From the NCBI RefSeq assembly GCF_988242995.1, contig NZ_OZ547043.1: a DNA stretch of 64,000 bases; one strand, 5' to 3'. Below the pieces are notes generated by a model. It did not search any database. It saw only the letters and a program-made list of their open reading frames with translations, and was not told the DNA's origin. The position numbers and the translations under genes are program-made. Positions within the stretch are counted from its first letter, which is position 1. Each line of letters opens with the position of its first letter. Shown in pieces: positions 17,958 through 60,001 of this stretch.

Positions 17958-18076
17958 ATGTTTCATCTTTTGGGGGAAAACTGTGCAGTGTTGGCAGTCA
18001 AACTCGTTGACAAAACAAAGTGTACAGAACGACTGCCCATGTCGATTTAGAAATAGTTTTTTGAAAGGAAAGCAGC

Positions 18077-18625
18077 ATGAAAATTAAAACTCTGGCAATC
18101 GTTGTTCTGTCGGCTCTGTCCCTCAGTTCTACAGCGGCTCTGGCCGCTGCCACGACGGTTAATGGTGGGACCGTTCACTTTAAAGGGGAAGTTGTTAACG
18201 CCGCTTGCGCAGTTGATGCAGGCTCTGTTGATCAAACCGTTCAGTTAGGACAGGTTCGTACCGCATCGCTGGCACAGGAAGGAGCAACCAGTTCTGCTGT
18301 CGGTTTTAACATTCAGCTGAATGATTGCGATACCAATGTTGCATCTAAAGCCGCTGTTGCCTTTTTAGGTACGGCGATTGATGCGGGTCATACCAACGTT
18401 CTGGCTCTGCAGAGTTCAGCTGCGGGTAGCGCAACAAACGTTGGTGTGCAGATCCTGGACAGAACGGGTGCTGCGCTGACGCTGGATGGTGCGACATTTA
18501 GTTCAGAAACAACCCTGAATAACGGAACCAATACCATTCCGTTCCAGGCGCGTTATTTTGCAACCGGGGCCGCAACCCCGGGTGCTGCTAATGCGGATGC
18601 GACCTTCAAGGTTCAGTATCAATAA
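18077..18625 (+). CDS. fimA: type 1 fimbrial major subunit
   Basis: 182-aa ORF with signal peptide and Ala/Thr-rich pilin sequence ending in a C-terminal beta-strand (FKVQYQ). Confidence 0.95.
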
Positions 18626-31282: not shown

Positions 31283-31954
31283 AATAGTTACCTTTTATGA
31301 GTATTTCACTGATGTTTAGAAAAATAGATAAATTTTTCTGTAGTAAAAAGAGAAGTAAACAAATGACATGCATGTTTCTGTTGTAGTGATATCAACTCTA
31401 CACGGTGATATTAAAGGGTAGGAAACACTCTAAAGTATCAAAAAACGCTCATTTAAAATTACTTGCATGCAATTTAAAAGCATATCTTATTACTAATTGG
31501 AATTTGATGTTGCTATATTGAGGTCTATATTAATAATGCCTGTGAATGGTATTTTTGATGTATTTGATATGTTATCAATTTATATTATTTACAAACTAAT
31601 TGTTTCAAATAATACATGGCTGATTATGCGGAAATAAATAATTTCCCACCGGAATTAAGTAGCAGCGGTGACAAGTATTTTCATCTACGTAACTATTCGG
31701 AATATTCAGAATATACTAGCGGTTTTTTTTTGAGTTTGATGATTTTTATCAAATCATGACTTTTTTCCTGAAAAGTCAGTAGATATTCATAGGCAAGTAA
31801 GGTTTTATACTTTGCTGACAGGATTCAGGCCTGTCTCAGACTGACATGGATGTAATGAACAAAAGGGAATGGCTATGGAAAATGAGCATCAATACAGTGG
31901 TGCCCGGTGTTCAGGGCAAGCCGCATATGTTGCTAAACGTCAGGAGTGCGCAAA

Positions 31955-32347
31955 ATGATGCGACAATCACTTCAGGCTGTTTTACCTGAAATTTCAGGCA
32001 ATAAAACGTCATCGCTGCGTAAATCGGTATGCAGCGATCTCCTCACTCTTTTTAATTCTCCTCATTCGGCATTACCGTCATTACTTGTTTCAGGCATGCC
32101 CGAGTGGCAAGTGCATAACCCGAGCGACAAACATCTCCAGAGCTGGTATTGCCGTCAGCTGCGTTCTGCACTGTTATTTCATGAGCCACGGATTGCGGCG
32201 TTGCAGGTTAATTTGAAAGAAGCGTACTGCCACACTCTGGCGATCAGCCTTGAGATAATGCTGTACCACGACGATGAACCGCTAACGTTTGATCTGGTCT
32301 GGGATAATGGCGGTTGGCGCAGTGCGACGCTGGAGAATGTCAGCTAA
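31955..32347 (+). CDS. iraD: anti-adaptor protein IraD (stabilises RpoS)
   Basis: 130 aa from [17 protein letters not shown]...; recognised from memory. Confidence 0.8.
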
Positions 32348-43959: not shown

Positions 43960-44874
43960 ATGACAAACTTCACGACCAGCACGCCGCATGATGCATTATT
44001 TAAAACCTTTCTCACGCACCCTGACACTGCGCGGGATTTTATGGAGATTCACTTACCTAAAGATTTACGTGAACTGTGCGATCTCGATAGCTTAAAACTG
44101 GAATCCGCCAGCTTTGTCGATGAAAAATTGCGGGCGCTACACTCCGATATTTTATGGTCGGTAAAGACCCGCGAAGGCGATGGCTATATCTATGTGGTGA
44201 TTGAACATCAGAGCCGCGAGGACATTCATATGGCCTTTCGCCTGATGCGCTATTCCATGGCGGTGATGCAGCGCCATATAGAGCATGATAAACGCCAGCC
44301 GCTACCGTTGGTCATCCCGATGCTATTTTATCACGGTAGCCGTAGTCCTTACCCCTGGTCCCTGTGCTGGCTGGACGAATTTGCCGACCCGACTACCGCA
44401 CGGAAGCTTTATAACGCCGCGTTCCCGCTGGTGGATGTTACTGTCGTGCCAGACGACGAGATTGTGCAGCATCGCAGAGTCGCCCTGTTGGAGTTGATCC
44501 AAAAGCATATTCGCCAGCGCGATCTGATGGGGCTTATCGATCAACTGGTAGTATTACTGGTTACAGAGTGTGCTAATGACAGCCAGATAACTGCGCTGTT
44601 AAATTACATTTTACTGACTGGCGATGAAGCGCGTTTTAATGAGTTTATCAGTGAACTTACCCGTCGAATGCCACAACACAGGGAGCGAATAATGACGATT
44701 GCAGAGCGAATTCATAATGATGGATATATAAAAGGGGAGCAGCGCATTCTTCGATTGTTGTTGCAGAATGGGGCGGATCCTGAATGGATACAAAAGATTA
44801 CCGGACTTTCGGCAGAGCAAATGCAGGCATTAAGGCAGCCCTTGCCTGAGCGCTATTCATGGCTCAAGAGCTAA
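43960..44874 (+). CDS. rpnD: Rpn-family (YhgA-like, PD-(D/E)xK) recombination-promoting nuclease, intact
   Basis: 304-aa ORF with D...E-x-Q nuclease core (DILWSV...YVVIEHQS). Confidence 0.7.
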
Positions 44875-45117: not shown

Positions 45118-46530
45118 TTATTCCATTGCCCGATACACGGCCTCGCCAATTTGCTTCAGTGCTTCGCGATAGGTTTCGCTGAGCGGCAAAGCGCAGTTGA
45201 TGCGCAGACAATTACGGTATTTGCCGGAAGCTGAGAAAATCGAGCCTGCCGCCACCTGGATTTTCATGCGGCACAGCTGCCGCGCGACGCAGACCATATC
45301 GACCTGTTCAGGCAATTCTATCCACAGTAAAAATCCGCCTTTCGGGCGCGTAATACAGATTTCGCAGGGAAAATATTCCCGTATCCAGCAGGTATAAAGC
45401 GCCAAATTGCGCTGATAGATCTGCCGCATCCGCCGGATATGGCGATGATAGTGACCTTCCAGCACAAACGTTGCCGCCGCCATTTGCGTGGACGGCACAT
45501 TAAAGCTGCTGATGGCGTATTTCATATGCATCAGTTTATCGTGATAACGCCCCGGTGCGACCCAACCCACGCGCAGGCCTGGTGCAATACTTTTACTGAA
45601 CGAGCTGCACAACAGCACTCGCCCGTCGATATCCCAGGAATGAATGGTCCGCGGGCGCGGATACTCCGTCGCCAGTTCGCCATAGACATCATCTTCAAAA
45701 ATCACAATATCATGACGCTGAGCGAGAGAGAGAACGGCCCGTTTGCGCGCGTCCGGCATAATAAATCCCAGCGGATTATTACAGTTTGGCACCAGAATGA
45801 TGCCTTTAATCGGCCACTGTTCCAGCGCCAGTTCCAGCGCTTCAACGCTGATGCCAGTTTCTGGATCGGTTGGGATTTCAATCACTTTCACGCCCATGCC
45901 GCGCAGCATCTGCATCGAACCGTAATAACAGGGGGATTCGACCGCGACAATATCGCCCGGTTTACACACTGCCATTAACGCCAGCGACATCGAGTTATGG
46001 CAGCCGCTGGTGATGATGATGTCATCGGCGGTGACCACCGAGCCGCTGTCGAGCATCAGGCGGGCAATCTGCTCTCGCAATACTCGCTGACCGGCTAACA
46101 AGTCATAACCGAGAACGGTTTGCAGATTATGCTGCACCACCCGGCTTAGCTCCCGCCAAAGCGGTTTCAGGCTGGGCGCTTCGACATCCGGTGTGCTTTT
46201 GCTTAACGGAACAATGGAACTGTCGCTATGCGCCTCCAGCATATCCAGCACCTGATCCCACTGGGTAATTTCCACCGGGCGCTGCACCGGACGCGTCATC
46301 GGCGGTACTGGCGGCTGGGCTTTACGTTGTGCGACAAAATAACCCGAACGCGGCTGCGGAGTGATGAGCTTCATCGTCTCCAGCGTCTGATACGCCTGCT
46401 GCACGGTGCTGATACTGACGCCGTGCTCCTGACTTAAGCTGCGCACCGACGGCAATTTCTCCCCGTGACGATACAGCCCTTGCTCAATCCGCTCGGCAAG
46501 CAGAGTTGCCAGATGTTGATAACGCGTCAT
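45118..46530 (-). CDS. yjiR: MocR-family regulator (GntR HTH fused to PLP-aminotransferase domain)
   Basis: 470-aa ORF with N-terminal HTH and aminotransferase-like remainder. Confidence 0.85.
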   Translation of the reverse strand: MTRYQHLATLLAERIEQGLYRHGEKLPSVRSLSQEHGVSISTVQQAYQTLETMKLITPQPRSGYFVAQRKAQPPVPPMTRPVQRPVEITQWDQVLDMLEAHSDSSIVPLSKSTPDVEAPSLKPLWRELSRVVQHNLQTVLGYDLLAGQRVLREQIARLMLDSGSVVTADDIIITSGCHNSMSLALMAVCKPGDIVAVESPCYYGSMQMLRGMGVKVIEIPTDPETGISVEALELALEQWPIKGIILVPNCNNPLGFIMPDARKRAVLSLAQRHDIVIFEDDVYGELATEYPRPRTIHSWDIDGRVLLCSSFSKSIAPGLRVGWVAPGRYHDKLMHMKYAISSFNVPSTQMAAATFVLEGHYHRHIRRMRQIYQRNLALYTCWIREYFPCEICITRPKGGFLLWIELPEQVDMVCVARQLCRMKIQVAAGSIFSASGKYRNCLRINCALPLSETYREALKQIGEAVYRAME

Positions 46531-46706
46531 GCTGTATTCCTTATTTGGACCATACAGAGAGAAAAACCGGTACAGATGAGGCTAAAAAACCGGATGCAGA
46601 TGCTGTTTTAACCTGTCTGTATGTTAAATAAAACTAATATTTGCATCTGTATTGTGAACTGCCTGAAGGTGGATGATGAAGCCTCTGAAAGATGAGGAGG
46701 CAGCAG

Positions 46707-46871
46707 ATGGAATTTTACGAAAACAAAGCCAAAACGCCGTTTATCAGACTTGTGCAACTCTGGCAGGCGGTGAGGCGTTGGCGGCGGCAAATGCAGACCC
46801 GACGAGTGTTACAGCAGATGAGTGATGAGCGGTTGAGGGATATCGGGTTACGCAGGGAGGATGTGGAGTGA
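46707..46871 (+). CDS. yjiS: DUF1127-family small protein
   Basis: Found by hand (below ORF-track size cutoff): GAGGAGG RBS, ATG at 46707, MEFYENKAKTPFIRLVQLWQAVRRWRRQMQTRRVLQQMSDERLRDIGLRREDVE, 54 aa. Confidence 0.8.
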   Translation: MEFYENKAKTPFIRLVQLWQAVRRWRRQMQTRRVLQQMSDERLRDIGLRREDVE

Positions 46872-47320
46872 GGGGGATATAGATTTATATATAATAAAAC
46901 GTTTTTATGTTGTTAAATTAAGTTATAAAAATTTTCCCGAGACAATTCATCAATAGGTATGGAGTGTACAGGAATATCTTCTTCACTAACCTCTTTAAAC
47001 TCATACTGATAACGGTCAAAAAACGCACAGTGATTACTTGTGTTTTTTGACTGACTTTACAACTCTCATTATTCGCTATTGTGCAGTTTCTCTAATTGTT
47101 TTATATCCTGGAATGTTAAATGTCAGCTACTGAATACTTTTTGATTGTTTGAGATTTATTTTCATTTGAAATTATAAAATCAGGTGATAAATGAGTTGTG
47201 ATTAATAGATGGTTGATATCATTTTTATCAAAAATTGATTTCTAGTATCGACCTTAAAAAATAGTTGTTGCCGCTTGGTTAATTATACGATATTTTGAAA
47301 AGTTTTCTTTCAAATTAGAA

Positions 47321-50300
47321 ATGTTGTGGGGTTTTGTTTTTGTATCTTTTATCTCTAAGGAGCTTGCTTTGGGTCAATCAGAATACATTTCATGGGTAAA
47401 ATGTACTTCCTGGCTAAGTAACTTTGTGAATCTTAGAGGGTTGAGACAACCGGATGGACGTCCTCTTTATGAATATCATGCAACCAATGCTGAATATAAC
47501 CAATTAACGCAGCTACTCTGTGCTGTTGGTCAATCACAATCTAATATATGTAATAGAGACTTTGCTGCCTGTTTTGTTCTTTTTTGCTCTGAGTGGTACC
47601 GCAGGGATTATGAACGGCAATGCGGATGGACGTGGGACCCTATATATAAAAAAATAGGGATTTCATTCACCGCCACAGAGCTTGGTACTATCGTACCGAA
47701 AGGGATGGAAGATTACTGGCTGCGCCCAATTCGATTTTATGAATCTGAACGACGTAATTTTCTCGGAACATTATTCAGTGAAGGTGGTTTACCTTTCCGG
47801 CTACTCAAAGAATCAGACAGTCGCTTTCTGGCTGTTTTCTCCAGGATCCTTGGACAATATGAGCAAGCAAAGCAGTCAGGTTTTTCTGCCCTTTCGCTGG
47901 CAAGAGCTGTCATAGAAAAATCAGCGCTGCCAACTGTTTTTAGCGAAGATACCTCTGTAGAACTTATCAGTCATATGGCTGATAACCTCAATTCCTTAGT
48001 ACTTACTCACAACCTAACAAATCACAAAGAACCAGTACAACAGCTTGATAAGGTTCACCCTACCTGGCGAAGCGAGTTTCCAATACCGTTAGATGATGAA
48101 ACAGGAACGCATTTTTTGAATGGACTGCTATGCGCAGCCTCTGTAGAGGCTAAGCCTCGACTACAAAAAAATAAGAGTACGCGTTGCCAATTCTATTGGT
48201 CAGAAAAGCATCCAGATGAGCTTAGGGTGATAGTATCTCTTCCTGACGAAGTTTCCTTTCCTGTAACTAGCGAGCCGTCAACTACGCGCTTTGAACTTGC
48301 CATTTATGAAGATGGTGAGGAAGTCTCTGGCCTTGGGCCAGCCTATGCTTCCCTGGAAAACAGACAGGCAACAGTTCGATTACGTAAAAGCGAAGTGAGA
48401 TTTGTCAGGCAAAATCCATCTGCAGGTTTGTCGTTAGTGGCTCGTGCTGGAGGGATGATTGTTGGGAGCATTAAACTTGATGACAGTGAAATTGCCATTG
48501 GTGAGGTGCCGTTAACCTTCATCGTTGATGCAGATCAATGGCTGTTACAGGGACAGGCCTCCTGCAGTGTGCGAAGCAGCGATGTTCTGATTGTGCTCCC
48601 TCGGGACAATAGCACTGTTGCTGGTTTTGATGGCCAATCGAGTGCAGTAAACGTATTAGGACTTAAAGCGCTACCTGTTAAGGGATGTCAGGACGTTACA
48701 GTTACAGCAAATGAAACTTATCGGATTCGCACCGGAAGAGAACAAATCAGCATCGGAAGGTTTGCTCTAAATGGAAAGCGTGCAAGCTGGGTTTGTCATC
48801 CAGATGAGACATTTATTGGTGTACCAAAAGTCATTTCTACACTACCAGATATTCAAAGCATTGATGTAACGCGTTACCTGAGCGGAATTTCAATTGAGCA
48901 ATGTCATATACAAGAGATGCTAGGGGCTCAATATCTTTCTATCCGTAATAGTAATAATGAAACGCTCTTGCGTCGCAAAATCGGTATCTTGCCTGCTGAT
49001 TTCAGTATTGAGATAAAAGGTGGAATGCACGCAAATGAAGGCACTATCGTAATCACCACACAGCATCCTTGTGTAGCAACACTTAAAGATAAAACATTGG
49101 AGGCTACACGTAAGCGTACTGAGGGGCGAACAGAGATACAACTCAAAGCGGAAGGGGTACCTCCGGCATTTATTACATTACAAGTTCTGCCTAATTTGGC
49201 GGCTGATACCATCGACATTGAGTTACCTTTCCCAGCTAAAGGCTGCCTTGCTCTTGATGTAAACGGACGTCCTCTGGATAAAAACATTACGCTGCATGAT
49301 CTGCTGGGTTCCAGAGCATTCCTGTTCTCCAGAAATGGTGAGCCGACAAAATATACATTGCAGTTGCATTTGCGCTCCATTAGTGGATTACAGGCATGGC
49401 ACGAATGGAGTTATACGGCATTGAGCGAGCGTCCTGTTGAATTGAATCTCTATAGTCTACGTGAACACATTGAAAATCTGATTTCACTTGAGGCAGGTAT
49501 TGATCAGGTTGTTGAGATGCGTATTACGGGGGCGGGTGTGGTCATGGCCTGGCAAATTCGTCGCTATAAATACAGCCTGCGCTATGATTATGAAAAAGAA
49601 CTATTACTCAGCCAGTCAGTGAACCATCGTGCTGGACAGATTCCTTCCCCCGTTATCATGCTGTTAAGTGAACCCGAGAGGAAATCCATTCCCTTAGCAT
49701 CAAGAATGAGCGAGGGAGTGCCTGTCGGTGAATATGAGTTGAGCTCAATCGTTAACAAAAACGGACCATGGTTGGTTGTTCCTAAACCGGGTGAAGAGAT
49801 GGCTTTTCGCCCCTGCTTCATTCGTGGCGAATCTTCGTTACCGGTAGAAGAAAGCAACATCCGCTCATTGCAGAAAGCGACCCAGCTTTTTAATCCACAG
49901 GCAGAAGTTAATACCATCACACGGGTTCTCGGACAGATGGCTAACGATCCTGCCCATTCCGGCTGGCAATTTATGCGTAGCCTGTACGATCAATTTGGTT
50001 ATTTACCGCTGGCAACCTTTGAAGTATGGCGTGCACTAGTGCAGCATCCGCAGGCATTGGCGATGTCGCTCTTCAAATTCGAAATGTCAGCAGAGTATCT
50101 GAGTCGTATTGAGAATGAGTTCCCTATTTTATGGGAGTTTTTCCCCATCTTTGAGATCAAAGCTGCATCTGAGCGTTTCAAATTGTTCCTGAGCCAAAAA
50201 GGTGCACCGGAGGAAACCCAGAAATTACTGGTTACCAATATGTTTCAACGGCTGGGGCTCGTGTTCCCGACATATGCCGATGAAATTGAGAAATGGTTAA

Positions 50301-50659
50301 GTAATGGATATCTCCCCCCGTCTATTCCTGAATCTTGTGTCCACGGGTGGTATCAGGAGCTCTTACGTGAGCACAGTGAAGCTCGCTGGCCTGAATACGG
50401 CTGCAAGCGTCTGTATAAATGGATGATGTCACAAAAAAATCCAGTGATTGGTATTAATCCTGACGCAAATCACCGCTATTCCGTGGCCTGGTTACCCGTC
50501 TTCGCCGCAGCGGTGGCAAGCGGAAATGCTTCTTTTGAATCTGTATTTGACCGTAAACCCGGTGCCGTATTTTTCCTGAGGCAAGTCAGGGATTTCGATT
50601 CCCGCTGGTTTAAGGCCATCTTCCAGTTCAGCCTGTTGCGTTATGTTGCTAAAAAATAA
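47321..50659 (+). CDS. large protein (1112 aa) of unknown function, first gene of candidate defence operon
   Basis: Uninterrupted 3.3-kb ORF. No nucleotide-binding or nuclease motif recognised by eye. An in-frame TTG at 47369 preceded by AAGGAG may be the true start. Stop lies 12 nt before the helicase gene. Confidence 0.8.
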   Translation: MLWGFVFVSFISKELALGQSEYISWVKCTSWLSNFVNLRGLRQPDGRPLYEYHATNAEYNQLTQLLCAVGQSQSNICNRDFAACFVLFCSEWYRRDYERQCGWTWDPIYKKIGISFTATELGTIVPKGMEDYWLRPIRFYESERRNFLGTLFSEGGLPFRLLKESDSRFLAVFSRILGQYEQAKQSGFSALSLARAVIEKSALPTVFSEDTSVELISHMADNLNSLVLTHNLTNHKEPVQQLDKVHPTWRSEFPIPLDDETGTHFLNGLLCAASVEAKPRLQKNKSTRCQFYWSEKHPDELRVIVSLPDEVSFPVTSEPSTTRFELAIYEDGEEVSGLGPAYASLENRQATVRLRKSEVRFVRQNPSAGLSLVARAGGMIVGSIKLDDSEIAIGEVPLTFIVDADQWLLQGQASCSVRSSDVLIVLPRDNSTVAGFDGQSSAVNVLGLKALPVKGCQDVTVTANETYRIRTGREQISIGRFALNGKRASWVCHPDETFIGVPKVISTLPDIQSIDVTRYLSGISIEQCHIQEMLGAQYLSIRNSNNETLLRRKIGILPADFSIEIKGGMHANEGTIVITTQHPCVATLKDKTLEATRKRTEGRTEIQLKAEGVPPAFITLQVLPNLAADTIDIELPFPAKGCLALDVNGRPLDKNITLHDLLGSRAFLFSRNGEPTKYTLQLHLRSISGLQAWHEWSYTALSERPVELNLYSLREHIENLISLEAGIDQVVEMRITGAGVVMAWQIRRYKYSLRYDYEKELLLSQSVNHRAGQIPSPVIMLLSEPERKSIPLASRMSEGVPVGEYELSSIVNKNGPWLVVPKPGEEMAFRPCFIRGESSLPVEESNIRSLQKATQLFNPQAEVNTITRVLGQMANDPAHSGWQFMRSLYDQFGYLPLATFEVWRALVQHPQALAMSLFKFEMSAEYLSRIENEFPILWEFFPIFEIKAASERFKLFLSQKGAPEETQKLLVTNMFQRLGLVFPTYADEIEKWLSNGYLPPSIPESCVHGWYQELLREHSEARWPEYGCKRLYKWMMSQKNPVIGINPDANHRYSVAWLPVFAAAVASGNASFESVFDRKPGAVFFLRQVRDFDSRWFKAIFQFSLLRYVAKK

Positions 50660-50671
50660 AAAGGAATAAGG

Positions 50672-53600
50672 ATGACTACACGCTATTTTTCGTCACTTAT
50701 TGAACAATCGTTGTCTCGTTCAACTGAAGCAACGCTCAGTATCATGGGCGTTACAAACCCGCAGTTGCGTGAACATCTCGCGCAGCAAATGGGGGCTGAT
50801 TGTGGGAAACCGGGCTCATTCCTTGCTTCTCCGGTATTCCAGCAAATGTTTGGCTGGAAGGAGTCAAACCACACGATGCGCAGTCTGACGGAAGGCAACG
50901 CATTGTTGAGCAAAGCAGTGGTTGATTCACTGGATGATCAGAGTAATGGCCGGTACCGATTTGGTGCTGACTGGAAGCCTTTTACACACCAGTTAGCCAG
51001 TTGGAAAGCTTTGCTGGAAAAGAAACATTCAGTGGTGGTAACCAGTGGTACGGGTTCAGGTAAAACGGAATGTTTTATGGTACCGGTGCTGGAAGATCTT
51101 TACCGGGAACTGCATGAAAATGGCAACAATCCGTTGGTCGGTGTCCGAGCCCTTTTTCTCTATCCATTGAACGCCTTGATTAATTCACAGCGCGAGCGTC
51201 TGGATGCCTGGACGCGTGGTTTTGGTACTGGGATCCGCTACTGCTTGTATAACGGAAATACAGAAGAGCTCCACGCAAAAATGAAAACAGTGCAGGATAA
51301 TAGACCAAATGAAGTCTTATCCCGTGAAAAGATGCGTCTGGAGCCAGCCCCGATTCTGGTGACCAACGGCACGATGCTGGAATATATGATGGTTCGCCAG
51401 GTCGACGCCCCGATTATCCAGCAATCCAAAGCACAAAAATCACTACGCTGGATTGTACTGGATGAAGCGCATACCTATGTCGGGTCGCAGGCCGCTGAAC
51501 TGGCACTCCAGCTGCGTCGTGTGATGACAGCGTTTGGCGTGACGCCAGATGATGTGCGCTTTGTAGCGACCTCTGCGACCATTGCCTGCAGCGACGCCGA
51601 AAAGCAGCTGAAAAAATTTCTCTCTGAATTATCCGGTATCCCGCAGGAGCGCATCGATGTTCTGGACGGAAGTCGGGTGATTCCTGAACTGGAACCATCC
51701 AAAAACGTTTCTGTTCCGTTAGACGAAATAGAGCAAATACCTGATCTGGATCTAAAAGATAAAAATGATAATAAAATTAAAGGGATAAGCCCTGAGCGCT
51801 TTTATGCGCTTACGCACTCCCCCGAAGCGCGTTACATACGTGAAATGTTGGTTAGCCAACCCAATCCAATGAAACTGGATGAGATGACGCAGCGGTTAAA
51901 TGCGCTGACAAAACAGCATTACAGCCAGCAGGAAGTACTGCGTTGGATCGATGTCTGTTCAGGGACTCAACCTAATGCAAAGGATCCCGCATTTCTTAAA
52001 GTCAGGGCGCATATCTTCCAGCGTAATACCCAAGGAATATGGGCTTGTGTTGATAAAGATTGCAGATTAAAGCACGGTACACCGCTCGAAAAAGGCTGGC
52101 CCTTTGGCTATGTGTATGTGAACCAGCGACAAAATTGTGACTGTGGAAGCCCTGTATACGAAGTTGCATTCTGTAATGATTGTAATGAGCCTCATCTTCT
52201 GGCGCAGGACAAAAAGGGCAAACTTGTCCAATGGGAAAATAAAGGTGGCGATGAGTTCTCCTTGCAGGATGAAGTACCTGTTGAACATGACACTACAGAG
52301 GAAAAAGTCGAAAAAGAGAACGGTTTCCTGCCTCCGTTGATTATTGCCGCAGGAGAGACCAGCGAGACAGGCTATACCCTACAACGCCTCGACCACCAGA
52401 CGCGCCGTATTGGCGTTATTAACAATGACAGCATTCCGCTGATTATTAATGATGTTGAACAGGTTTGTAGCGCCAGTGGCTGTGGCTACAGAGGCATGAG
52501 TGGGAAACAGCCCTTCCGGCGTGCACTATTAGGTGGGCCATTTTACGTTACTAATATCGTGCCCACCGTTCTTGAGTATTGTCAGGACTTTACCAGTGAT
52601 GAAGGCAAAGAGGGCGTCGGACCAGATTCGTTGCCAGGGCGAGGACGTCGACTCATTACCTTTACGGACAGTCGACAAGGTACAGCTCGAATGGCGGTGC
52701 GTATGCAGCAAGAAGCAGAACGCAGTCTCTTACGCGGAAGCGTAGTCGAAATTCTGAGCTGGCATCAACGGACGCAAACGTCCACGGCGCCGAATGCCAA
52801 TGCCGATCTGGAAAAATTAGCGGCCAGGGCAAAGCAAGCCCGTGAGCAGGCAGAAGAATATCGAAGCTGGGGAATGCCAGACCAGGCGAAATTGTCACAA
52901 GCACAGGCTGAACAGCTTGAACAGGCTTATCAGGCTGCAACCGGTGGAAAAGCAGCAACTACCCTGGTATCCCGCACCTGGACAGAAATGGTTAACGAGC
53001 TTAAAGATAAAGCCGATATCCGTGGCCCGGTACTGAAATATAACCACTATTTGCAGCCTGAAGTGTTTAATAAAAACGGCGGGCCACTAAAGCTTTCGGA
53101 AATGTTGTTGTTCCGGGAATTCATGCGTCGCCCTAAACGGACTAACAGCCTGGAAACACAGGGGCTGGTTCAGGTTGGTTACCAGGGGCTGGAGAAAATA
53201 CATAAGAGCCCCTTGCACTGGCAGGAAAAAGGATTAACGCTGGATGACTGGCGCGATTTTCTCAAGGTTACGTTGGATCTTTATGTTCGCGAAAGCAACT
53301 TCACACAGCTGGATGATGAGCTGAAAAACTGGATTGGTAGCCGTTTTTCATCAAAATTCGTCCGTAACCCGGAATCAAAAGATCCTGAAGATAATCAGAA
53401 CAGACGCTGGCCTCAAATTCGTAATGGCAACGTATCCCATCGTTTAGCGAAGTTACTGATGCTGGGGGCTGGATTCAAAACCGTCAATACGGCGACTATT
53501 GATATTATCAATACATGGCTGAAAGAAGCATGGGCCCAACTTACCGGACCACTTGCAGTACTGAAACCCGATGGCAACCGTTTTTATTTACCGAAAGAGC

Positions 53601-56600
53601 ATATGACTTTTTCTTTAATCACGGATGCCTGGATTTGCCCGGTAACCAATAAAATCCTGGATACGGCTTTTAAAGGCTTAACCCCTTATCTGCCCACCCA
53701 TATTTCGTTCGAGCATCTTACCCAGGCGCAATATGACACTTTTGTCGCGCAGAAAGTCACCATGCCGGAAATCTGGAAGCTGGATCGTTCACAGGAAGAC
53801 TACGCAGAGGGTCTGGCAAAAGCACGAGACTGGGTCAACAATGATCCGCTGATCGCACAATTGCGGTCGGAAAACGTCTGGACAGACATCAACGATCGTG
53901 TAGTGGAAGGCGGTTTCTACTATCGCACTGCCGAGCACTCTGCCCAGCAGTCGTCAGAACGCCTGCAAAGCTATGAAAAGATGTTCAAGAACGGGCAACT
54001 AAATGTTCTCAACTGTTCCACCACCATGGAAATGGGGGTTGATATTGGGGGCATTACTGCGGTGGTAATGAACAACGTTCCGCCACATCCGGCCAACTAT
54101 TTACAGCGCGCCGGGCGAGCCGGGCGTAGTAAAGAATCACGCGCGATCTCTTATACCCTATGCAAAGGTAACCCACACGACCAGCAGGTTTTTGCCAACC
54201 CACTCTGGCCATTTGAAACCATGATCCCGGCACCCATGGTCGCGATGAACTCCGCCCGACTGGTGCAACGTCACGTCAATGCATTATTACTGTCTGACTT
54301 TTTATGTAACGTTATTGGCGAAACCGATAAAGAGAAAACCAGCCTCGATAGCCTCTGGTTTTTCGGTGAAGATGACGGGCAGTCAAAATGCGAACGCTTT
54401 AAAGTCTGGCTGGAACGCCCGGTTCTTGATATCGACATGGCGCTGGAACGGCTGGTGAAAGGTACGGCGTTGCATGGCGCAAGAGCCGAACATCTGCGGG
54501 ATAAAACAATCAATGCGATCACCTTCCTGCAACAGCGGTGGCTCTCCGTTTATCGCGATCTCGTGACCCAGGAGCGTGAGTCGCAGCCGCAAACGCCTTA
54601 TCGTAAGCGCATAGAGCTGGAGAAGAAACGGCACTGTGGCGAGTATCTGCTGCGCGATCTGGCTGCCAGAACCTTCCTGCCGGGATACGGTTTCCCGACA
54701 GATGTAGTGACGTTTGATAACTTCACGATGGAAGATTATATCCGCGAAAAATCGCAGAAAAGTCGTGATAAAAAGGACCGTGAAGATAACGTCTCCCGTT
54801 ATAAAGGATTACCTTCCCGTAACCTCGGTGTTGCCATTCGTGAATATGCACCGGGAGCAGAGATCATTCTTGATGGTCGTGTCTTCCGCTCTGCCGGTGT
54901 CTCACTGCACTGGCACAACATTAATGCTGATACCAATGAAGCCCAGCGTCTGGATTGCGCCTGGCGCTGTCACAAATGCGGGACCATTGGCTATGAAGAG
55001 GGGATGAGCAGTTCCGGGATGCTCTTTTGCTCCAACAGCGCCTGCGGCGAAAAAATAACCATGGATAATCGCCGTCAGGTGTTGCAGCCTGCCGGGTTTG
55101 TCACCGATGCACACGCTCCGGTAACGAACAATATTGAAACCATGAAATTCGTCCCGGTTGTCCCCGCGTGGGTCTTTGTTAAAGCAGAGCCTGTACCGTT
55201 GCCTAACCCGCTAATGGGTTATATGGCTTCTGGGGCTGATGGGCATGTTTTCCAGCAAAGTTTGGGGGAAGGTGGACACGGTTATGCATTGTGTCTGAGC
55301 TGTGGCCGTGCGGAGTCGATGCTGAATGAAAATGATGCACCGAAAAGTATGGAAGCTCACTATCCACCGCGTCCGGGTAAAGCGGACCGCGACAGCCAGA
55401 ATCATCGTCTGATTTGCCCCGGTTCGACGGCACTCATGAAGAACGTCACCCTGGGCGCACTGGCGCGCACCGATGTCTTTGAAATGGTTCTGCGCAAACC
55501 GCAAAACGGCGAGTATCTGCCAGATAACACAGAAGAGGGGCGGATTGTCGCTATGACTCTGGCGGTTGCTCTGCGTCAGGCGCTGGCAGGCGTTCTGGGT
55601 ATCTCCGCCGCAGAACTCGGCTATTCTGTACGTCCGGTCAGACTGGAGGATGGGCAATCGGTATTAGCCGTTCAGCTTTATGATGTGATCAGCGGTGGTG
55701 CTGGTTTTGCCTCCAGCGCACCGGTACATATTGAAGCTATATTGCAGGGAATGGTGAAACAGTTAGGCTGCCGCCATTGTGATACTGCATGCAGTGAATG
55801 TCTGCTTGATTCCCAGACTCGCCACGATCACGATTTGCTGGATCGCAAAGTGGCGCTGGCTTGGCTTGGCGATGACTTCACGTATTACATCGGTTTACCG
55901 GATGAAGAGACATTCTCGCTGCCGGATGCCCGCTACTGCCCTGGCGCTATTGGCGATACGATTCGCCGGGCGATTAACGAAGGCGCTGAAAAGCTCACCC
56001 TGTGGATGACTGGCGCGCCCAATGAGTGGGATTTATACGGCCGTCAGTTCCGCGCGGCTATTCAGAGCTATCGGCTAAAAGACAACGTCGAGGTCGATCT
56101 TGTTATTCCTGCGGGAGTGGATGACCCAGACCTGTTGCATGAACTATCGCAATTTACTGCGCTGGGTGTGCGGTTGTGCCATGTTGAGCAGGAGCTGCAA
56201 TTACCGATTGTTGCCCAGGTCACCTTTGCCGATCGCGTGATGACGCTGGCCTCTCGCAGTCAGCAGGCAACGATTCCGGGGCCGGAGTGGCACCTGAATG
56301 ACGAACTGGTGGTGCGTAGTCTCGGTTATCAAACGGTAGAACTGAACGAGTTTATTCTGCCCGCTAAAGCCGCCAACGCTGTCGAGCGGGTCAAAGACAT
56401 TCAGATCCACAAACAGTTGAATGGACCACTTTCGCAGTTTGGGCAACGCTTCTGGGACGTGCTGTTTAACGACCATGAAGAAGCGCAGTCACTGATGAAA
56501 AACACGCGAATTACCGGCGTTCACTATACCGATCGCTATCTGCAAAACCCGGTTGCGCTGGCGTTGTTGGGATCAATTCTGAAACCGCTAAAAACAAAGC

Positions 56601-57016
56601 TGACCGATGGCGCTGAAGTGGCGCTGGATACGCTGTTTAAAGATAAAGATCGCCCCGGTAACCGGCCTTTCCATGACTGGATGAGCATAGCGGATTTTCA
56701 GGATTTCGCTGATCAGTGGTTTGCTGCTGCGCTGGGCAGGCCGATAGAACTGACGGTGTTCGATTCGCCGCGCGATATCCCTCACCATCGTAAACTGACG
56801 GTGACTTTTGAGGATGGTCAGGTATTGAAGATCCGCTTCGATCAGGGGATGGGCTACTGGCGCATCAACTTTGCATCGCAATGGCATTACTTTGATTTCC
56901 GCGATGACGTTTCTTTCCAGTTAGTCAAAATGGCTCAGGCCTGCAAGGAAGGGAATGTGGCCAACAGCGAAGAGAGCTGGGCAACGGATGTGCTGGTGGA
57001 GGTGATCGCCTCCTGA
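50672..57016 (+). CDS. giant SF2 (DEAH-type) helicase, 2114 aa, with Cys-rich zinc-ribbon clusters (DUF1998/MrfA-like); DruE-like candidate
   Basis: Walker [11 protein letters not shown] (51041-51070); DEAH box VLDEAH (51455-51472); FVATSAT; motif [10 protein letters not shown] (54104-54127); Cys clusters at 52046-52183, 54956-55045, 55292-55303 and 55769-55801; AAGGA RBS before the ATG. Confidence 0.85.
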
Positions 57017-57023
57017 TGATGTG

Positions 57024-57050
57024 CCGCTCCCGACGTCGTGTCGGGAGCGG
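57024..57050. terminator. bidirectional hairpin terminator between the convergent helicase gene and mcrC
   Basis: Perfect inverted repeat ccgctcccgac-gtcgt-gtcgggagcgg 8 nt after the helicase stop, followed by tattgtct. Confidence 0.55.
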
Positions 57051-57072
57051 TATTGTCTATAAAACTTACCGC

Positions 57073-58119
57073 TTATTTGAGATATTCATCGAAAATGGCG
57101 AGTAATTCTTGATGTATACACGGCCATTCCTGACCTAAATTGACGGTACACAGGCCAATATCGAAGCCATTAATTTTATAACGATGTTTCACTGCGGTGT
57201 CTACGTGGGGGTATATTAATAAACCCCCTATGTTTTCGCCATTTTCAGGTTTTAACGACCATAAGTAATTCATCAGTTGATAAAGATTTTGAGAGTGAAA
57301 TTTTTCTGAGCCCATTCGTCGTGAAAAAATGCTCTTATAGTATTTGGCGTCAACGATAAGTATTTTTTCTGATGAGCGAATGGTGATGTCAGTTTCCATT
57401 CGAGGTAACAAATTAAGTGACTGATCCGATATGCTCGATGCATCCCATTTTAAATAAGAGCGGGTTGTATTTGCAGACGTTAATTCACGGCGGCAAAATT
57501 CAAAAAGAAACTTTTGATAAAGTAATGACATCTCTTTTTCGTTTCTTTCAAAATCATAGAAACGGTAGTGTCCTTTGTTTTGACCTGGGATAGAATTATT
57601 GACGATGAACTTACAGACGCTGATAACAAATTTATAATAACGCGTGTTCTTTCCGCCATTCAGATAGCTGAAATGCTGCGGAGTTAAATGAAGAGTGCTA
57701 ATGCCCGGTAATTTTCTATAAAGTGAACGAGCTTCATCTCTGATGGTTGAGTTTAACTTTTCATGCTTAATTAACATGGCTAATGTGCTTTTTATAATTC
57801 GGTTAGCCAGCGTATCTTCATTAAGCAGATCAAAAGTACTGACGGTTTTCCCATGATTAAGATGGAAGCCGCGTATTGTTTTAGCAAACTCTATTCGCCC
57901 TTTGATGCCAGGAATGATCTCGGTATTAGGATTGTAATCAAGCTCAAGCCCTCGGCGTGAAAGCTGTAAAACCCCTTTATTTAATACATACCCCAGGATA
58001 TCAAGAAGATTGTTACCGGGAATGGCTTCAAGGTCGGCCTGCTTAATTTCCTGTAAATAACCCCATGCATAGGTAAGCATGTAATAGATATTACGGACAG
58101 GTATCACGGGCTGTTCCAC
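57073..58119 (-). CDS. mcrC: McrBC restriction endonuclease, nuclease subunit
   Basis: 348-aa ORF whose start overlaps the mcrB stop; recognised as McrC. Confidence 0.9.
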   Translation of the reverse strand: MEQPVIPVRNIYYMLTYAWGYLQEIKQADLEAIPGNNLLDILGYVLNKGVLQLSRRGLELDYNPNTEIIPGIKGRIEFAKTIRGFHLNHGKTVSTFDLLNEDTLANRIIKSTLAMLIKHEKLNSTIRDEARSLYRKLPGISTLHLTPQHFSYLNGGKNTRYYKFVISVCKFIVNNSIPGQNKGHYRFYDFERNEKEMSLLYQKFLFEFCRRELTSANTTRSYLKWDASSISDQSLNLLPRMETDITIRSSEKILIVDAKYYKSIFSRRMGSEKFHSQNLYQLMNYLWSLKPENGENIGGLLIYPHVDTAVKHRYKINGFDIGLCTVNLGQEWPCIHQELLAIFDEYLK

Positions 58120-59498
58120 TATGAGTCACCTAATAATTTGTCGGCCCATATCTGTTGTTTATAGGGGTCATCAAAGAAATATTCTTCGAGTAAAGGGGCG
58201 ATATCCGTCATCACAATTTCCTTAAGCCATTGCGTATCAGGAGAGGTGCCATCTTCCAACCCGGAGCAGAAGTAACTATGCCCAATGCGGAATCCTTTCC
58301 CAAGGATAGTGGCCTCTTTGCTGATTTCCTGGTTTAACTCATTCATTTTTTGGCATAAAGACTCAACAAATGAAGGTTCTGCTTTTTTATTCAGTAAAAA
58401 ATTACGGAACTGTGGTGTATCAAAACCAGGCTCAATATCTATGAAAGAAAATCGTCTGCGCAGGGCATAATCAACAACGGCCAGAGAGCGATCGGCAGTA
58501 TTCATTAAACCGATAATATAAACATTCTCCGGGACATAGAATCGTTCTTCATCGTTTTCGGAATAGGTTAAGGGAACAGACCAGTTTTCACCTCGTTTAT
58601 CATGTTCCATTAACATCATCACTTCGCCAAATACTTTACTGAGATTGGCACGATTGATTTCATCTATAATAAAAACATACTTTTTCTCTGGCTGCTCTTT
58701 AGCTTGCTGACAAAAATTGTAAAATATGCCGTCTTTACGTCGGAAGCCGACGCCATTCGGACGATAGCCCTGTATAAAATCCTCATAGCTATAAGATTGA
58801 TGGAACTGAACCATATTGACGCGTTGCGGAGCCTTTTCTCCTGTCAGCAGGTAAGCCAGACGGCGTGCAACAAAGGTTTTTCCAACGCCGGGCGGCCCCT
58901 GGAGGATAATATTTTTTTTGATGGTTAATCGTTTGAGTATCGTCTCTATCGTGGTTTCAGGGATAAACAAATCATTTAACGCATCTTCCAGACAGTATGA
59001 TTCAGTTTTTGACATAGGTGGAATAACACTCTTGCCAGAATTAAATATTAATTTATAGTCGTTGATTATGTTGTCCAGCATGGAGGCAAACCGGGTATAA
59101 TCAAGACCCTGTGAGACTTTTTGGGAACAGGCGTAATAGGACTGTCCGTATTTTTTAGGATAAACACCTGAAGTTGTCTGGAAATACTCTGCGATTGTTT
59201 TAGGTATGTCTGAAGAGAACTGCCATTGGGCATGTGGTTTATTCGTGTCGCTTATACCATAAGCCAAAACCAACTCATCAAAATCTTTATAATAGAGAAT
59301 AACGGGATATATACCGTTAGAAACTTCCTGACCTTCTCCCAGAAATGCAAACCAGGGAATAGATGTAAAATTGCCATAACCGAAACTCACTTTTACTCGC
59401 AGGTTACGGTAAGACGTTGGATAATCTTTGGTGGATTGTGAACTTTTTTGCTGTGCTTGCTCAATAAATTTTTCAATCCAGGCTTGAATTGATTCCAT
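58119..59498 (-). CDS. mcrB: McrBC 5-methylcytosine-specific restriction enzyme, GTPase/DNA-binding subunit
   Basis: AAA+ Walker A GPPGVGKT and Walker B FIIDEINRAN; start placed at MESIQAWIEKF for about 459 aa (ORF track begins 6 codons earlier). Confidence 0.9.
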   Translation of the reverse strand: MESIQAWIEKFIEQAQQKSSQSTKDYPTSYRNLRVKVSFGYGNFTSIPWFAFLGEGQEVSNGIYPVILYYKDFDELVLAYGISDTNKPHAQWQFSSDIPKTIAEYFQTTSGVYPKKYGQSYYACSQKVSQGLDYTRFASMLDNIINDYKLIFNSGKSVIPPMSKTESYCLEDALNDLFIPETTIETILKRLTIKKNIILQGPPGVGKTFVARRLAYLLTGEKAPQRVNMVQFHQSYSYEDFIQGYRPNGVGFRRKDGIFYNFCQQAKEQPEKKYVFIIDEINRANLSKVFGEVMMLMEHDKRGENWSVPLTYSENDEERFYVPENVYIIGLMNTADRSLAVVDYALRRRFSFIDIEPGFDTPQFRNFLLNKKAEPSFVESLCQKMNELNQEISKEATILGKGFRIGHSYFCSGLEDGTSPDTQWLKEIVMTDIAPLLEEYFFDDPYKQQIWADKLLGDS

Positions 59499-59659
59499 AA
59501 GATGTGCCTTCCTCATTGCTAAGCCTCTATTATCGCTTTCGCAACGTACTGAAACAATAGATTTTTACTGCAAAAGGTGGTGGGTAAATATTTACTGAGG
59601 GGGAAAGTTTCTATTGAGTCAGTGGAAGGCTCCCGGTGGTTAACCGGGAGTAAACGCTG

Positions 59660-60001
59660 TTACGCGACTTTCTGTTTACCGGCAATCACTCCAATAAACG
59701 CCTGCACCTGCTTTTGTTTACGTGCCGACAGCTTGCACACCTGGCGCAGCGACTGCATCAGTTCGCTCTCTTCGACGGCGAGTGGTTGGGCGGTGAGGAC
59801 AATACAGCCTTCCATCACTTTGACATCTACCGCCGTGCCGGTGGTAAAACCGGCGGCTTCCAGCCACTGACCTTTCAGGGTGATGGCGGGAATACGGCTG
59901 TAATCCGGGTAGCGACTCGCATAACTCACGGTTAATTGACGGTTATTTGCCGGGGAGACTTCTGCTTCGAACGGTTGTGCAATAGAATGCATGTCAGTCA
60001 T
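59660..60001 (-). CDS. symE: SOS-induced toxin SymE (AbrB-fold RNA endonuclease-like)
   Basis: 113-aa [55 protein letters not shown]...; upstream LexA box. Confidence 0.85.

What the first reader, a model, noticed from the sequence alone, without database searches (positions are those of the whole stretch)
46872..47368. AT-rich 450-bp leader upstream of the candidate defence operon
The yjiS-to-ORF interval is markedly AT-rich (runs such as atagatttatatataataaaacgtttttatgttgttaaattaagttataaaaatttt), typical of horizontally acquired, H-NS-silenced promoter regions and in contrast to the flanking coding DNA. It probably holds the operon promoter and its regulation.
Basis: seen in the sequence. 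Interest (0 to 1): 0.3.

Follow-up and report, generated by a model that had tools for sequence, protein, structure and literature searches.

The report
AT-rich promoter region of Druantia III
The AT-rich 497-base gap between yjiS and the next gene is the regulatory region of a horizontally acquired two-gene anti-phage system (Druantia type III), holding a weak but evolutionarily conserved promoter: real, but an ordinary kind of feature.

Summary
Window 46872-47368 is a 497-bp gene-free spacer of 28.6% G+C, against 48% for the window, as low as the fim regulatory regions in the same window.

The genes downstream are druH (yjiT) and druE, a full-length Druantia type III defence system in the E. 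coli immigration control region. The spacer belongs to the acquired DNA. Homology with E. coli strains that lack the system stops 6 bases after the yjiS stop codon.

Only the proximal ~330 bp travels with druHE in other enterobacterial genera, which have different neighbours. That part holds an invariant TTG-17-TAnnnT sigma-70-type promoter: -35 at 47268-47273, -10 at 47291-47296, inferred start near 47302. An unstructured 5' UTR of about 66 nt follows, then AAGGAG and a conserved TTG start codon. Conserved blocks upstream include an inverted repeat; what binds them is unknown.

Published in vitro work on the K-12 orthologue places both RNA polymerase holoenzyme and H-NS in this spacer. H-NS silencing is not shown, and some data argue against complete silencing.

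No start-site data could be retrieved. No RNA element, hidden gene or terminal repeat was found.

The parts
46707..46871 (+). yjiS, a DUF1127 protein of 54 aa. It is the last core-genome gene before the variable segment.
   Evidence: RefSeq annotation of the identical strain CFS3313. Pfam DUF1127, E = 2e-13. Present in 3738 of 5426 genomes.
46872..47368 (.). The AT-rich spacer between yjiS and druH: 497 bp, 28.6% G+C.
46878..59683 (.). Variable (horizontally acquired) segment of the immigration control region: spacer, druH, druE, mcrC, mcrB and the 3' end of symE.
   Evidence: Homology with strains that lack Druantia ends at 46877/46878 and resumes at 59684. Annotation.
46878..47040 (.). Distal part of the spacer, found only in Escherichia (E. 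coli, and E. whittamii at 81%). No function identified.
   Evidence: No similarity to any other Druantia III locus. It is not alignable across genera. A protein-like reading on the minus strand has stop codons in E. whittamii and no homologues.
47044..47075 (+). Outermost block conserved across genera (TTTTTTGACTGACTTTACAAC...), the approximate left limit of the portable upstream region.
   Evidence: Alignments A2 and A4. In Citrobacter portucalensis the host tRNA-Leu flank reaches to about 290 bp upstream of druH.
47147..47180 (.). Conserved block A. It contains an inverted repeat with arms at 47147-47154 and 47160-47167 (consensus AAGTRAAA-N5-TTTYAYTT) and TTTCA-TT-TGAAA. It is a candidate protein-binding site. 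It overlaps the published predicted promoter TTGAGA (47149-47154)-18-TATAAA (47173-47178).
   Evidence: Highest non-coding conservation, 0.69-0.74 pairwise identity. The repeat is kept, with one compensated position, in 7 sequences, and its RNA folding energy is negligible. The published prediction is in PMC3946193. The hexamers are not conserved outside Escherichia.
47186..47223 (.). Conserved GATAAAT (47186-47192) and block B (47200-47223, GATTAATAGATGGTTGATATCATT; in other genera ATCAA-N3-TTGAT). Candidate protein-binding sites.
   Evidence: Invariant within Escherichia.
47253..47267 (+). Conserved A-rich block AAAAA(A/T)TAG just upstream of the -35 element, in the position of an UP element.
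   Evidence: Nearly invariant A..A.TAG in 10 sequences.
47268..47273 (+). -35 hexamer TTGCCG of the inferred druHE promoter P1.
   Evidence: TTG is invariant in 7 sequences and invariant or nearly invariant in 10. Best position-weight-matrix (PWM) site in the spacer.
47291..47296 (+). -10 hexamer TATTTT of P1, with a 17-bp spacer from the -35 element.
   Evidence: T1, A2 and T6 are invariant across genera. The invariant pattern arises in 1-2 of 20000 column shuffles. The aligned site ranks first in 6 and in the top three in 10 of 14 orthologous upstream regions.
47302..47306 (+). Conserved GTTTT, the inferred transcription start region (start at about 47302-47303).
   Evidence: G273, T275 and T277 are invariant in A4. 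The position relative to the -10 element is inference.
47303..47368 (+). Inferred 5' UTR of about 66 nt, U-rich and unstructured.
   Evidence: Fold z-score +0.84. No Rfam match.
47357..47362 (+). Shine-Dalgarno sequence AAGGAG, 6 nt before the start codon.
   Evidence: Seen in the sequence. Conserved in all enterobacterial orthologues.
47369..50659 (+). druH (yjiT), 1096 aa, with a TTG start codon conserved across genera (GTG in Proteus and Pantoea sp. C3).
   Evidence: PADLOC DruH3, 1831 bits, full length. RefSeq start. Alignments.
50672..57016 (+). druE, 2114 aa, a DEAD/DEAH helicase with an MZB domain.
   Evidence: PADLOC DruE3, 2692 bits. Pfam DEAD, Helicase_C and MZB.
57023..57050 (.). 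GC-rich hairpin (GCCGCTCCCGAC ... GTCGGGAGCGG) between the convergent druE and mcrC genes, the likely end of the operon.
   Evidence: Seen in the sequence. Not tested further.

Best explanation
The spacer is the upstream regulatory region of a horizontally acquired Druantia type III operon (druH/yjiT and druE), inserted between yjiS and symE in the E. coli immigration control region. It has two parts.

The distal ~165 bp (46878-47040) is AT-rich DNA found only in Escherichia, with no recognisable function.

The proximal ~330 bp (about 47040-47368) is a portable module that accompanies druHE in several enterobacterial genera with different neighbours. It contains these elements:

- a weak sigma-70-type promoter, with TTGCCG at 47268-47273, a 17-bp spacer and TATTTT at 47291-47296
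- an A-rich block in front of the promoter
- an inferred start near 47302
- a short, unstructured, U-rich 5' UTR of about 66 nt
- a strong Shine-Dalgarno sequence and a conserved weak TTG start codon.

Together these are expected to give low-level expression of a large and potentially self-harmful helicase-nuclease system.

Conserved blocks 80-155 bp upstream of the start include a 21-bp inverted repeat. They are most likely binding sites for conserved host proteins, because the cassette encodes no regulator. H-NS is expected to coat the AT-rich DNA and damp the promoter rather than shut it off.

What is shown: the base composition, the acquisition boundary, the Druantia III identity and the cross-genus conservation of the promoter pattern. 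What comes from published work on the K-12 orthologue: in vitro binding of RNA polymerase and H-NS in the spacer. What is inferred: the exact start site, the strength of the promoter, and what binds the upstream blocks.
For: - **Composition.**
- **Identity of the operon.** Full-length DruH3 and DruE3 matches. druE follows druH directly in all 43 related loci that extend past druH.
- **Acquisition.** The junction lies at 46877/46878 and 59684. 629-631 genomes carry the spacer, against 3738 with yjiS.
- **Portability.** AT-rich, gene-free upstream regions of about 210-1370 bp or more occur in all 13 enterobacterial loci, only one of which (E. whittamii) has yjiS upstream. Pseudomonas-type loci have no AT-rich upstream region and mostly have an ORF 39-163 bp upstream.
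- **Promoter.** It is the best PWM site in the spacer. TTG-17-TAnnnT is invariant in 7 sequences, which arises in 1-2 of 20000 column shuffles. It is kept in a 10-sequence alignment that adds Kalamiella, Pantoea and Cronobacter. The aligned site ranks in the top three in 10 of 14 orthologues and is kept in all E. coli haplotypes examined.
- **Start codon and ribosome-binding site.** Both are conserved.
- **Literature.** An RpoD holoenzyme SELEX peak, flagged for H-NS, lies in the K-12 yjiS>yjiT spacer (PMC3946193). yjiT transcript changes were measured in K-12 (PMC2270276). RNA polymerase ChIP signal at yjiT is reported in PMC5811629.
Against: - No experimental transcription start site could be retrieved. 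The supplements of four start-site or transcript-mapping papers were truncated, silent or not held.
- The promoter's PWM score (7.7) is no better than the best site in shuffled sequence (mean 8.1). The case therefore rests on conservation.
- The strict consensus scan found no promoter at all.
- The published prediction for K-12 names a different hexamer pair (TTGAGA-18-TATAAA).
- No terminator follows yjiS, so read-through may contribute.
- The alignments are in AT-rich DNA, where alignment is less certain. The most distant orthologues (Proteus, Pantoea sp. C3) keep the site poorly.
- H-NS evidence is in vitro only. The published high-affinity H-NS 10-mer is not enriched in the spacer, and A-tracts are not helically phased.
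Confidence: 0.62

Rival explanations
1. The main promoter is the one predicted in the literature, TTGAGA (47149-47154)-18-TATAAA (47173-47178). It would start near 47185 and give a 5' UTR of about 184 nt. The conserved block A would then be that promoter.
For: The genomic SELEX peak of RpoD holoenzyme in the K-12 spacer was assigned to these hexamers (PMC3946193). The same hexamers are present in the window. They lie in the most conserved non-coding block.
Against: The hexamers were chosen by best match near a low-resolution peak. The PWM score is lower than for P1 (4.7 against 7.7). Outside Escherichia the aligned site loses the -35 TTG and the final T of the -10 element, and it ranks 11th to 171st among candidate sites. 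Conservation of block A fits a protein-binding inverted repeat better.
Confidence: 0.2
2. druHE has no effective promoter of its own in this strain and is transcribed by read-through from the yjiS promoter across the spacer.
For: No terminator-like hairpin follows yjiS here. Strains in which yjiS abuts symE have a GC-rich hairpin at that position. An RpoD site upstream of yjiS is reported. The + strand of the spacer is poor in C, at 12%, which by general knowledge is unfavourable for Rho loading.
Against: The same upstream module with the same promoter pattern accompanies druHE in genera where yjiS is absent and the neighbours differ, for example tRNA-Leu, Mrr-like and DUF2569 genes. It would also require nearly 500 nt of untranslated RNA in a region that binds H-NS.
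Confidence: 0.12
3. The spacer is fully silenced by H-NS, so the operon is off under ordinary conditions and needs an anti-silencer or loss of H-NS.
For: G+C is 28.6% and TpA density is doubled. The DNA is horizontally acquired. H-NS binds the K-12 spacer in genomic SELEX. The composition equals that of the fim regulatory regions in the same window; that those are classical H-NS targets is general knowledge.
Against: K-12 yjiT mRNA is measurable and changes with acid shift. RNA polymerase ChIP signal is reported at yjiT in wild type. In other strains, Druantia III systems defend at native expression levels, and deleting hns reduced defence, although that is a different allele and locus. There is no strong H-NS nucleation motif and no A-tract phasing.
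Confidence: 0.3
4. The spacer hides something other than a promoter: a decayed gene, a small protein gene, a small RNA or riboswitch-type leader, or the terminal repeat of a mobile element.
For: The minus strand at 46913-47056 reads as a protein-like C-terminal fragment (...FFDRYQYEFKEVSEEDIPVHSIPIDELSRENFYNLI*). The spacer is unusually long.
Against: - Fragment: it has no start codon, has stop codons in E. whittamii, and has no homologue in 1.84 billion representative proteins, apart from two tiny ORFs of about 92% identity, or in plasmids and phages.
- RNA: no Rfam match reaches threshold, there is no stable fold, and the consensus structure has negligible energy.
- Repeats: no repeat of 9 bases or more is shared with the druE-mcrC or mcrB-symE junctions.
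Confidence: 0.04

Closest known systems
AT-rich regulatory regions of horizontally acquired genes bound by H-NS (xenogeneic silencing), such as the fimB-fimE and nanC-fimB regions in this same window
   Same: G+C is very low relative to the genome. The DNA has an acquired origin. It sits upstream of an operon. In vitro H-NS and RNA polymerase binding is reported for the K-12 orthologue.
   Different: Silencing itself is not demonstrated. No high-affinity H-NS motif or curvature signal was found. Evidence from related systems points to expression at native levels.
The K-12 yjiS-yjiT spacer, listed as a 'constitutive promoter' (type-B spacer) in the genomic SELEX catalogue of Shimada et al. 2014 (PMC3946193)
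   Same: It is the orthologous sequence, 96.8% identical, with the same hexamers.
   Different: In K-12 the operon behind it is decayed: yjiT is truncated and yjiV is a pseudogene. Here it drives an intact Druantia III. The catalogue's predicted hexamers differ from the promoter that is conserved across genera.
Druantia type III (III-A) druHE operons of E. coli ATCC 8739, EDL933 and ECOR19, studied in two 2026 preprints (10.64898/2026.05.13.724758 and 10.64898/2026.05.12.724681)
   Same: The same two-gene architecture and protein families. One study used a 'native putative promoter' upstream of druH that sufficed for defence in MG1655.
   Different: Those systems sit in a different locus, a satellite-type island flanked by Zorya II and ARMADA II. 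They are too diverged to be detected by DNA search with this allele. Neither preprint, as far as searched, maps or describes the promoter.

Membership tests
Sigma-70-dependent bacterial promoter | -35 and -10 hexamers resembling TTGACA and TATAAT, separated by 17 +/- 1 bp | tested here: met
   TTGCCG-17-TATTTT matches 4 of 6 positions in each hexamer and is the best PWM site in the spacer. It fails the stricter 9-of-12 consensus scan.
Sigma-70-dependent bacterial promoter | Conservation of the critical positions (TTG; T1, A2 and T6 of the -10 element) in orthologous regions | tested here: met
   Invariant in alignment A2 and nearly so in A4. The pattern arises in 1-2 of 20000 column shuffles. 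The aligned site ranks in the top three in 10 of 14 orthologues.
Sigma-70-dependent bacterial promoter | Experimentally mapped transcription start and RNA polymerase binding | not testable with these tools
   Only spacer-level in vitro binding of RpoD holoenzyme in K-12 is available (PMC3946193). No start-site data could be retrieved.
H-NS-silenced xenogeneic regulatory region | G+C content well below the genome average, in horizontally acquired DNA | tested here: met
   G+C is 28.6% against 48.4%. Presence/absence varies among strains, with the junction at 46877/46878.
H-NS-silenced xenogeneic regulatory region | H-NS occupancy | not testable with these tools
   Published genomic SELEX (in vitro) marks the K-12 spacer as H-NS-bound. 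No in vivo ChIP data were retrieved, because the cap on papers was reached.
H-NS-silenced xenogeneic regulatory region | High-affinity nucleation motif (TCGATAAATT-like; consensus recalled from the literature) or intrinsic curvature | tested here: not met
   Only two matches with 2 mismatches fall in the spacer, and the window overall has 96 matches against 77 expected by chance. AA/TT dinucleotides show no 10-11 bp periodicity.
H-NS-silenced xenogeneic regulatory region | Derepression when H-NS is removed | not tested
   No data exist for this allele. In ATCC 8739, which has a different allele, deleting hns lowered Druantia defence.
Druantia type III defence system (the operon served by the spacer) | Adjacent DruH and DruE genes matching the type III profiles over their full length | tested here: met
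   PADLOC gives DruH3 at 1831 bits (residues 1-1096) and DruE3 at 2692 bits (residues 1-2110). The gene order is conserved in all 43 related loci that extend past druH.
Cis-regulatory RNA leader (riboswitch, attenuator or thermosensor) | A conserved, stable RNA secondary structure or a match to a known family | tested here: not met
   No Rfam match near the gathering score. The 5' UTR fold has z = +0.84. The consensus structure energy is -0.25 kcal/mol.

The most novel reading that the evidence does not exclude
The enterobacterial Druantia III cassette may carry a portable, conserved cis-regulatory module that plugs into a regulator present in every host, so that the defence is regulated rather than constitutive. 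The module consists of the inverted repeat AAGTRAAA-N5-TTTYAYTT and the ATCAA-N3-TTGAT block, 80-155 bp upstream of a weak promoter. The -10 element of that promoter is TAnnCT in 10 of 13 orthologous sequences. By general knowledge, the C at -8 is typical of the sigma-S-preferred TATACT.

Candidate inputs:

- Sigma-S or stress: K-12 yjiT rises after an acid shift together with dps, gadAB, hdeD, osmC and elaB.
- The LysR-type factor YiaU: ChIP-exo binding and differential expression at yjiT.
- Counter-silencing of H-NS.
Probability: 0.25. Interest if true: 0.45.

Novelty: new member of a known kind. Interest (0 to 1): 0.22.

Why it matters
Little is known about how constitutively carried anti-phage systems are expressed. 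The recent mechanistic work on Druantia III used an inducible promoter in one study and an unmapped 'native putative promoter' in the other.

Three results are practical. They give a defined core promoter, show that the upstream module moves with the genes, and place the acquisition boundary exactly at the yjiS stop codon. Together they say which ~330 bp to clone for native-level expression and which bases to mutate.

The conserved upstream blocks give a concrete handle for asking whether a host factor tunes the defence. Otherwise this is a typical AT-rich promoter region of foreign DNA.

Tried and rejected
- **Known RNA families.** An Rfam scan of 46400-47700 at E <= 10 gave only chance snoRNA-type hits far below their thresholds.
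- **RNA structure.** The inferred 5' UTR folds no better than shuffles. The region after yjiS has z = -1.95 and no terminator features. RNAalifold on the conserved blocks found only the DNA-level inverted repeat.
- **Simple promoter and terminator scan.** It found nothing in 46400-47600, against 3.5 promoters expected from shuffles. That is uninformative rather than negative.
- **Hidden gene.** The minus-strand fragment was searched in plasmids, in phages and against 1.84 billion representative proteins, with no real homologue. It is interrupted in E. whittamii.
- **H-NS motif and curvature.** The 10-mer is not enriched, and A-tracts are not phased.
- **Terminal repeats.** No repeat of 9 bases or more links the spacer to the right-hand junctions of the island.
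- **Start-site data.** The supplements of two Cappable-seq papers and of Kim 2012 held nothing for this locus, and the two Cappable-seq supplements may be cut. Conway 2014 has no supplement held as text, and Thomason 2015 is not held at all.
- **In vivo H-NS and YiaU site coordinates.** None were retrievable.
- **Finding the ATCC 8739/EDL933-type druHE in E. coli genomes by DNA similarity.** This failed because the allele is too diverged. The search instead showed that the C. portucalensis cassette abuts a tRNA-Leu gene.
- **Matching block A by eye to CRP, TyrR, IHF and FNR consensus sequences recalled from the literature.** Nothing fitted, and no claim is made.
Full report
**Observation.** The interval between the stop codon of yjiS (46871) and the annotated TTG start of the next gene (47369) is 497 bp.
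- Its G+C content is 0.286. The whole window has 0.484, yjiS and yjiR have 0.53-0.55, and the two downstream genes have 0.45 and 0.51.
- Only 0.25% of all 497-bp windows in the 64 kb are as AT-rich.
- The quoted run is present at 46880-46935.
- The other troughs of this depth are the nanC-fimB, fimB-fimE, fimE-fimA and iraD-yjiC intergenic regions.

**Context.** The window is the E. coli immigration control region and is 100% identical to strain CFS3313.
- The 'candidate defence operon' is a full-length Druantia type III system. The 1096-aa product (yjiT) matches the PADLOC DruH3 profile end to end (1831 bits). The 2114-aa helicase matches DruE3 (2692 bits; Pfam DEAD, Helicase_C, MZB).
- K-12 has the same spacer at 96.8% identity, but behind it only a truncated yjiT and the yjiV pseudogene.
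- About 630 of 5426 complete genomes carry the spacer. Only 223 of them keep at least 80% of the first 2.4 kb of druH. IS insertions and truncations are common.

**The spacer is acquired DNA.** yjiS is present in 3738 genomes. In those without druH, similarity stops at window 46871-46878.
- Direct comparison puts the left junction at 46877/46878 and the right junction at 59684, inside the 3' end of symE.
- The whole spacer therefore belongs to a ~12.8-kb variable segment: spacer, druHE and mcrBC.
- Where the segment is absent, yjiS is followed within 42 bp by the convergent symE, with a GC-rich hairpin between them, or within 96 bp by GmrSD-type genes.
- That hairpin is missing here, and no terminator-like site follows yjiS.

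**Only part of the spacer travels with the genes.** I collected 45 DruH loci from one genome per species and four more by exact-protein look-up.
- druE follows druH directly in all 43 of the 45 loci that extend past druH.
- All 13 enterobacterial loci (DruH 62-95% identical) have an AT-rich, gene-free upstream region of roughly 210-1370 bp or more. Only E. whittamii shares the yjiS context.
- In the Pseudomonas-type clade (about 45% identical) the upstream DNA has the same G+C as the gene, and a mechanically called ORF mostly lies 39-163 bp upstream.
- Alignment shows that window ~47040-47368 is homologous across Citrobacter, Pseudenterobacter, Serratia, Enterobacter, Pantoea, Kalamiella and Cronobacter. 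The distal 46878-47040 is found only in Escherichia.
- In Citrobacter portucalensis the host tRNA-Leu flank reaches to about 290 bp from druH. That sets the same limit for the portable part.

**The promoter.** Conservation along the proximal part is uneven, and one pattern stands out.
- TTG at 47268-47270, and T, A and T at 47291, 47292 and 47296, are invariant in seven sequences. This is TTGCCG-17-TATTTT, conserved at exactly the positions that matter most in sigma-70 promoters.
- Shuffling the alignment columns produced such an invariant TTG-(16-18)-TAnnnT in only 1-2 of 20000 trials.
- The pattern persists when Kalamiella, two Pantoea and Cronobacter are added.
- It is kept in four E. coli haplotypes and in E. 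whittamii.
- A simple position weight matrix ranks it first in the spacer of the window. The aligned site ranks first in 6 and in the top three in 10 of 14 orthologous upstream regions.
- On sequence alone it is weak. Its score is no better than the best site in shuffled DNA, and the stricter consensus scan missed it.
- A conserved AAAAA(A/T)TAG sits just upstream of the -35 element, and a conserved GTTTT sits where transcription should start (about 47302-47303).

**From the inferred start to the start codon.** The resulting 5' UTR of about 66 nt is U-rich and unstructured. It ends in AAGGAG, 6 nt before a TTG start codon. The TTG is conserved in the alignable enterobacterial orthologues; Proteus and Pantoea sp. 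C3 have GTG instead.

**Upstream blocks.** Between 80 and 155 bp upstream of the inferred start lie the best conserved non-coding blocks.
- Block A is 47147-47180. It contains an inverted repeat (AAGTRAAA-N5-TTTYAYTT) whose arms are kept in seven sequences, with one compensated position, but which has negligible RNA folding energy.
- GATAAAT lies at 47186-47192.
- Block B is 47200-47223. In other genera it reads ATCAA-N3-TTGAT.
- The cassette encodes no regulator, so these are most simply sites for host proteins conserved across Enterobacterales. I could not identify which proteins.

**Published evidence (K-12 orthologue).**
- Genomic SELEX found an RpoD holoenzyme peak in the yjiS>yjiT spacer, flagged as also holding an H-NS site. 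The authors predicted TTGAGA-18-TATAAA (PMC3946193).
- Those hexamers are present here (47149-47154 and 47173-47178), inside block A. They are not conserved as a promoter outside Escherichia, and the method does not resolve positions within a spacer.
- A sigma-32 ChIP-chip site about 265 bp upstream of yjiT was reported by Wade et al. 2006 and not reproduced (PMC2996942).
- YiaU, a LysR-type factor, is reported to bind at yjiT and to affect its expression.
- yjiT mRNA rose after a rapid acid shift, alongside many stress genes (PMC2270276).
- RNA polymerase ChIP signal at yjiT fell in an rpoZ mutant (PMC5811629).
- Two 2026 preprints on Druantia III used pBAD or a 'native putative promoter'. 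In the searches made, neither was seen to map a promoter. In the second, the ATCC 8739 system, which has a different allele and locus, protected MG1655 from its native upstream region, and deleting hns lowered defence.

**Interpretation.**
- Two parts of its reading need correcting. It is mostly not a 'leader', because only about 66 nt are predicted to be transcribed with the operon. And 'H-NS-silenced' goes beyond the evidence.
- H-NS binding is plausible and is reported in vitro. The known high-affinity 10-mer is not enriched, A-tracts are not phased, and the indirect expression data argue against a complete shut-off.
- Read-through from yjiS cannot be excluded, because no terminator intervenes. 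The cross-genus conservation shows that the cassette brings its own promoter.

**Alternatives examined and set aside.** No Rfam family matched and no conserved RNA structure was found.
- A protein-like reading on the minus strand of the distal part has no start codon. It is interrupted in E. whittamii and has no homologue in any collection searched.
- No terminal repeats link the spacer to the other end of the island.

**Limits.** No transcription start data, no in vivo H-NS occupancy and no site coordinates for YiaU could be retrieved. The start site, the promoter strength and the identity of the proteins binding the upstream blocks are inferences. Alignments in AT-rich DNA carry some uncertainty, and the most distant orthologues keep the promoter poorly.

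**Verdict.** This is a real and ordinary feature: the AT-rich regulatory region of a horizontally acquired Druantia III operon. It has a conserved weak promoter and conserved upstream blocks that move with the genes. It is a new, more precisely described member of a well-known kind. Interest is low, with a modest chance that the upstream blocks reveal regulated rather than constitutive expression of the defence.

Noticed in passing
window 47369-57016; L002 8415-12856 (K-12): K-12 yjiT (505 aa) and the yjiV pseudogene are the decayed remains of this intact Druantia III operon. Of about 630 genomes with the locus, only 223 keep at least 80% of the first 2.4 kb of druH. Many of the truncated ones are K-12 laboratory derivatives.
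   Followed up: partly
L056, L057, L058 (E. coli Z1323CEC0008, TC24, AMSCJX03): The divergent haplotypes of the spacer tend to sit in front of damaged operons. One has a partial druH, one has an IS3 element in druH, and one has an IS1 element inserted at spacer position ~294 with a deletion reaching hsdS.
   Followed up: partly
L004 9223-9265, compared with window 46872-46915: Strains in which yjiS abuts symE have a GC-rich hairpin (CCCCTTCCC-GTGT-GGGGAAGGGG) between the two convergent genes. It is absent from the window, so yjiS has no evident terminator here.
   Followed up: partly
window 57023-57050: A strong GC-rich hairpin (GCCGCTCCCGAC / GTCGGGAGCGG) lies between the convergent druE and mcrC genes. 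It is probably a bidirectional terminator.
   Followed up: no
L037 3500-3710 (Citrobacter portucalensis): The Druantia III cassette there lies about 290 bp from a tRNA-Leu gene flank that is conserved in nearly all E. coli genomes. tRNA-Leu genes are typical island integration sites.
   Followed up: partly
window 47291-47296 and aligned sites in L006-L054: The conserved -10 hexamer reads TAnnCT in 10 of 13 orthologous sequences, including K-12 (TATTCT). The window's own allele has TATTTT. From general knowledge, a C at -8 is the hallmark of the sigma-S-preferred TATACT. No -13 C is present.
   Followed up: partly
window 47369 and orthologues: druH starts with TTG in the alignable enterobacterial orthologues (GTG in Proteus and Pantoea sp. 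C3), behind a strong AAGGAG. A conserved weak start codon suggests that low translation is selected.
   Followed up: partly
window 14248-18140 and 30935-32025: The other deep AT-rich troughs of the window are the nanC-fimB, fimB-fimE and fimE-fimA (fim switch) regions and the iraD/ytiD-yjiC region.
   Followed up: partly
L011-L029 and related loci (Pseudomonas-type Druantia III): In many of the loci about 45% identical, druH is closely preceded (39-163 bp) by a same-strand ORF, in several cases of 500-1100 aa. The operon may be longer there. The ORFs were called mechanically and were not identified.
   Followed up: no
window 43960-44874: An Rpn-family recombination-promoting nuclease gene (rpnD; a pseudogene in K-12, yjiP in older papers) lies just outside the proximal border of the variable region. 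A published study links it to recA-independent replacement of this region (PMC4498929).
   Followed up: no
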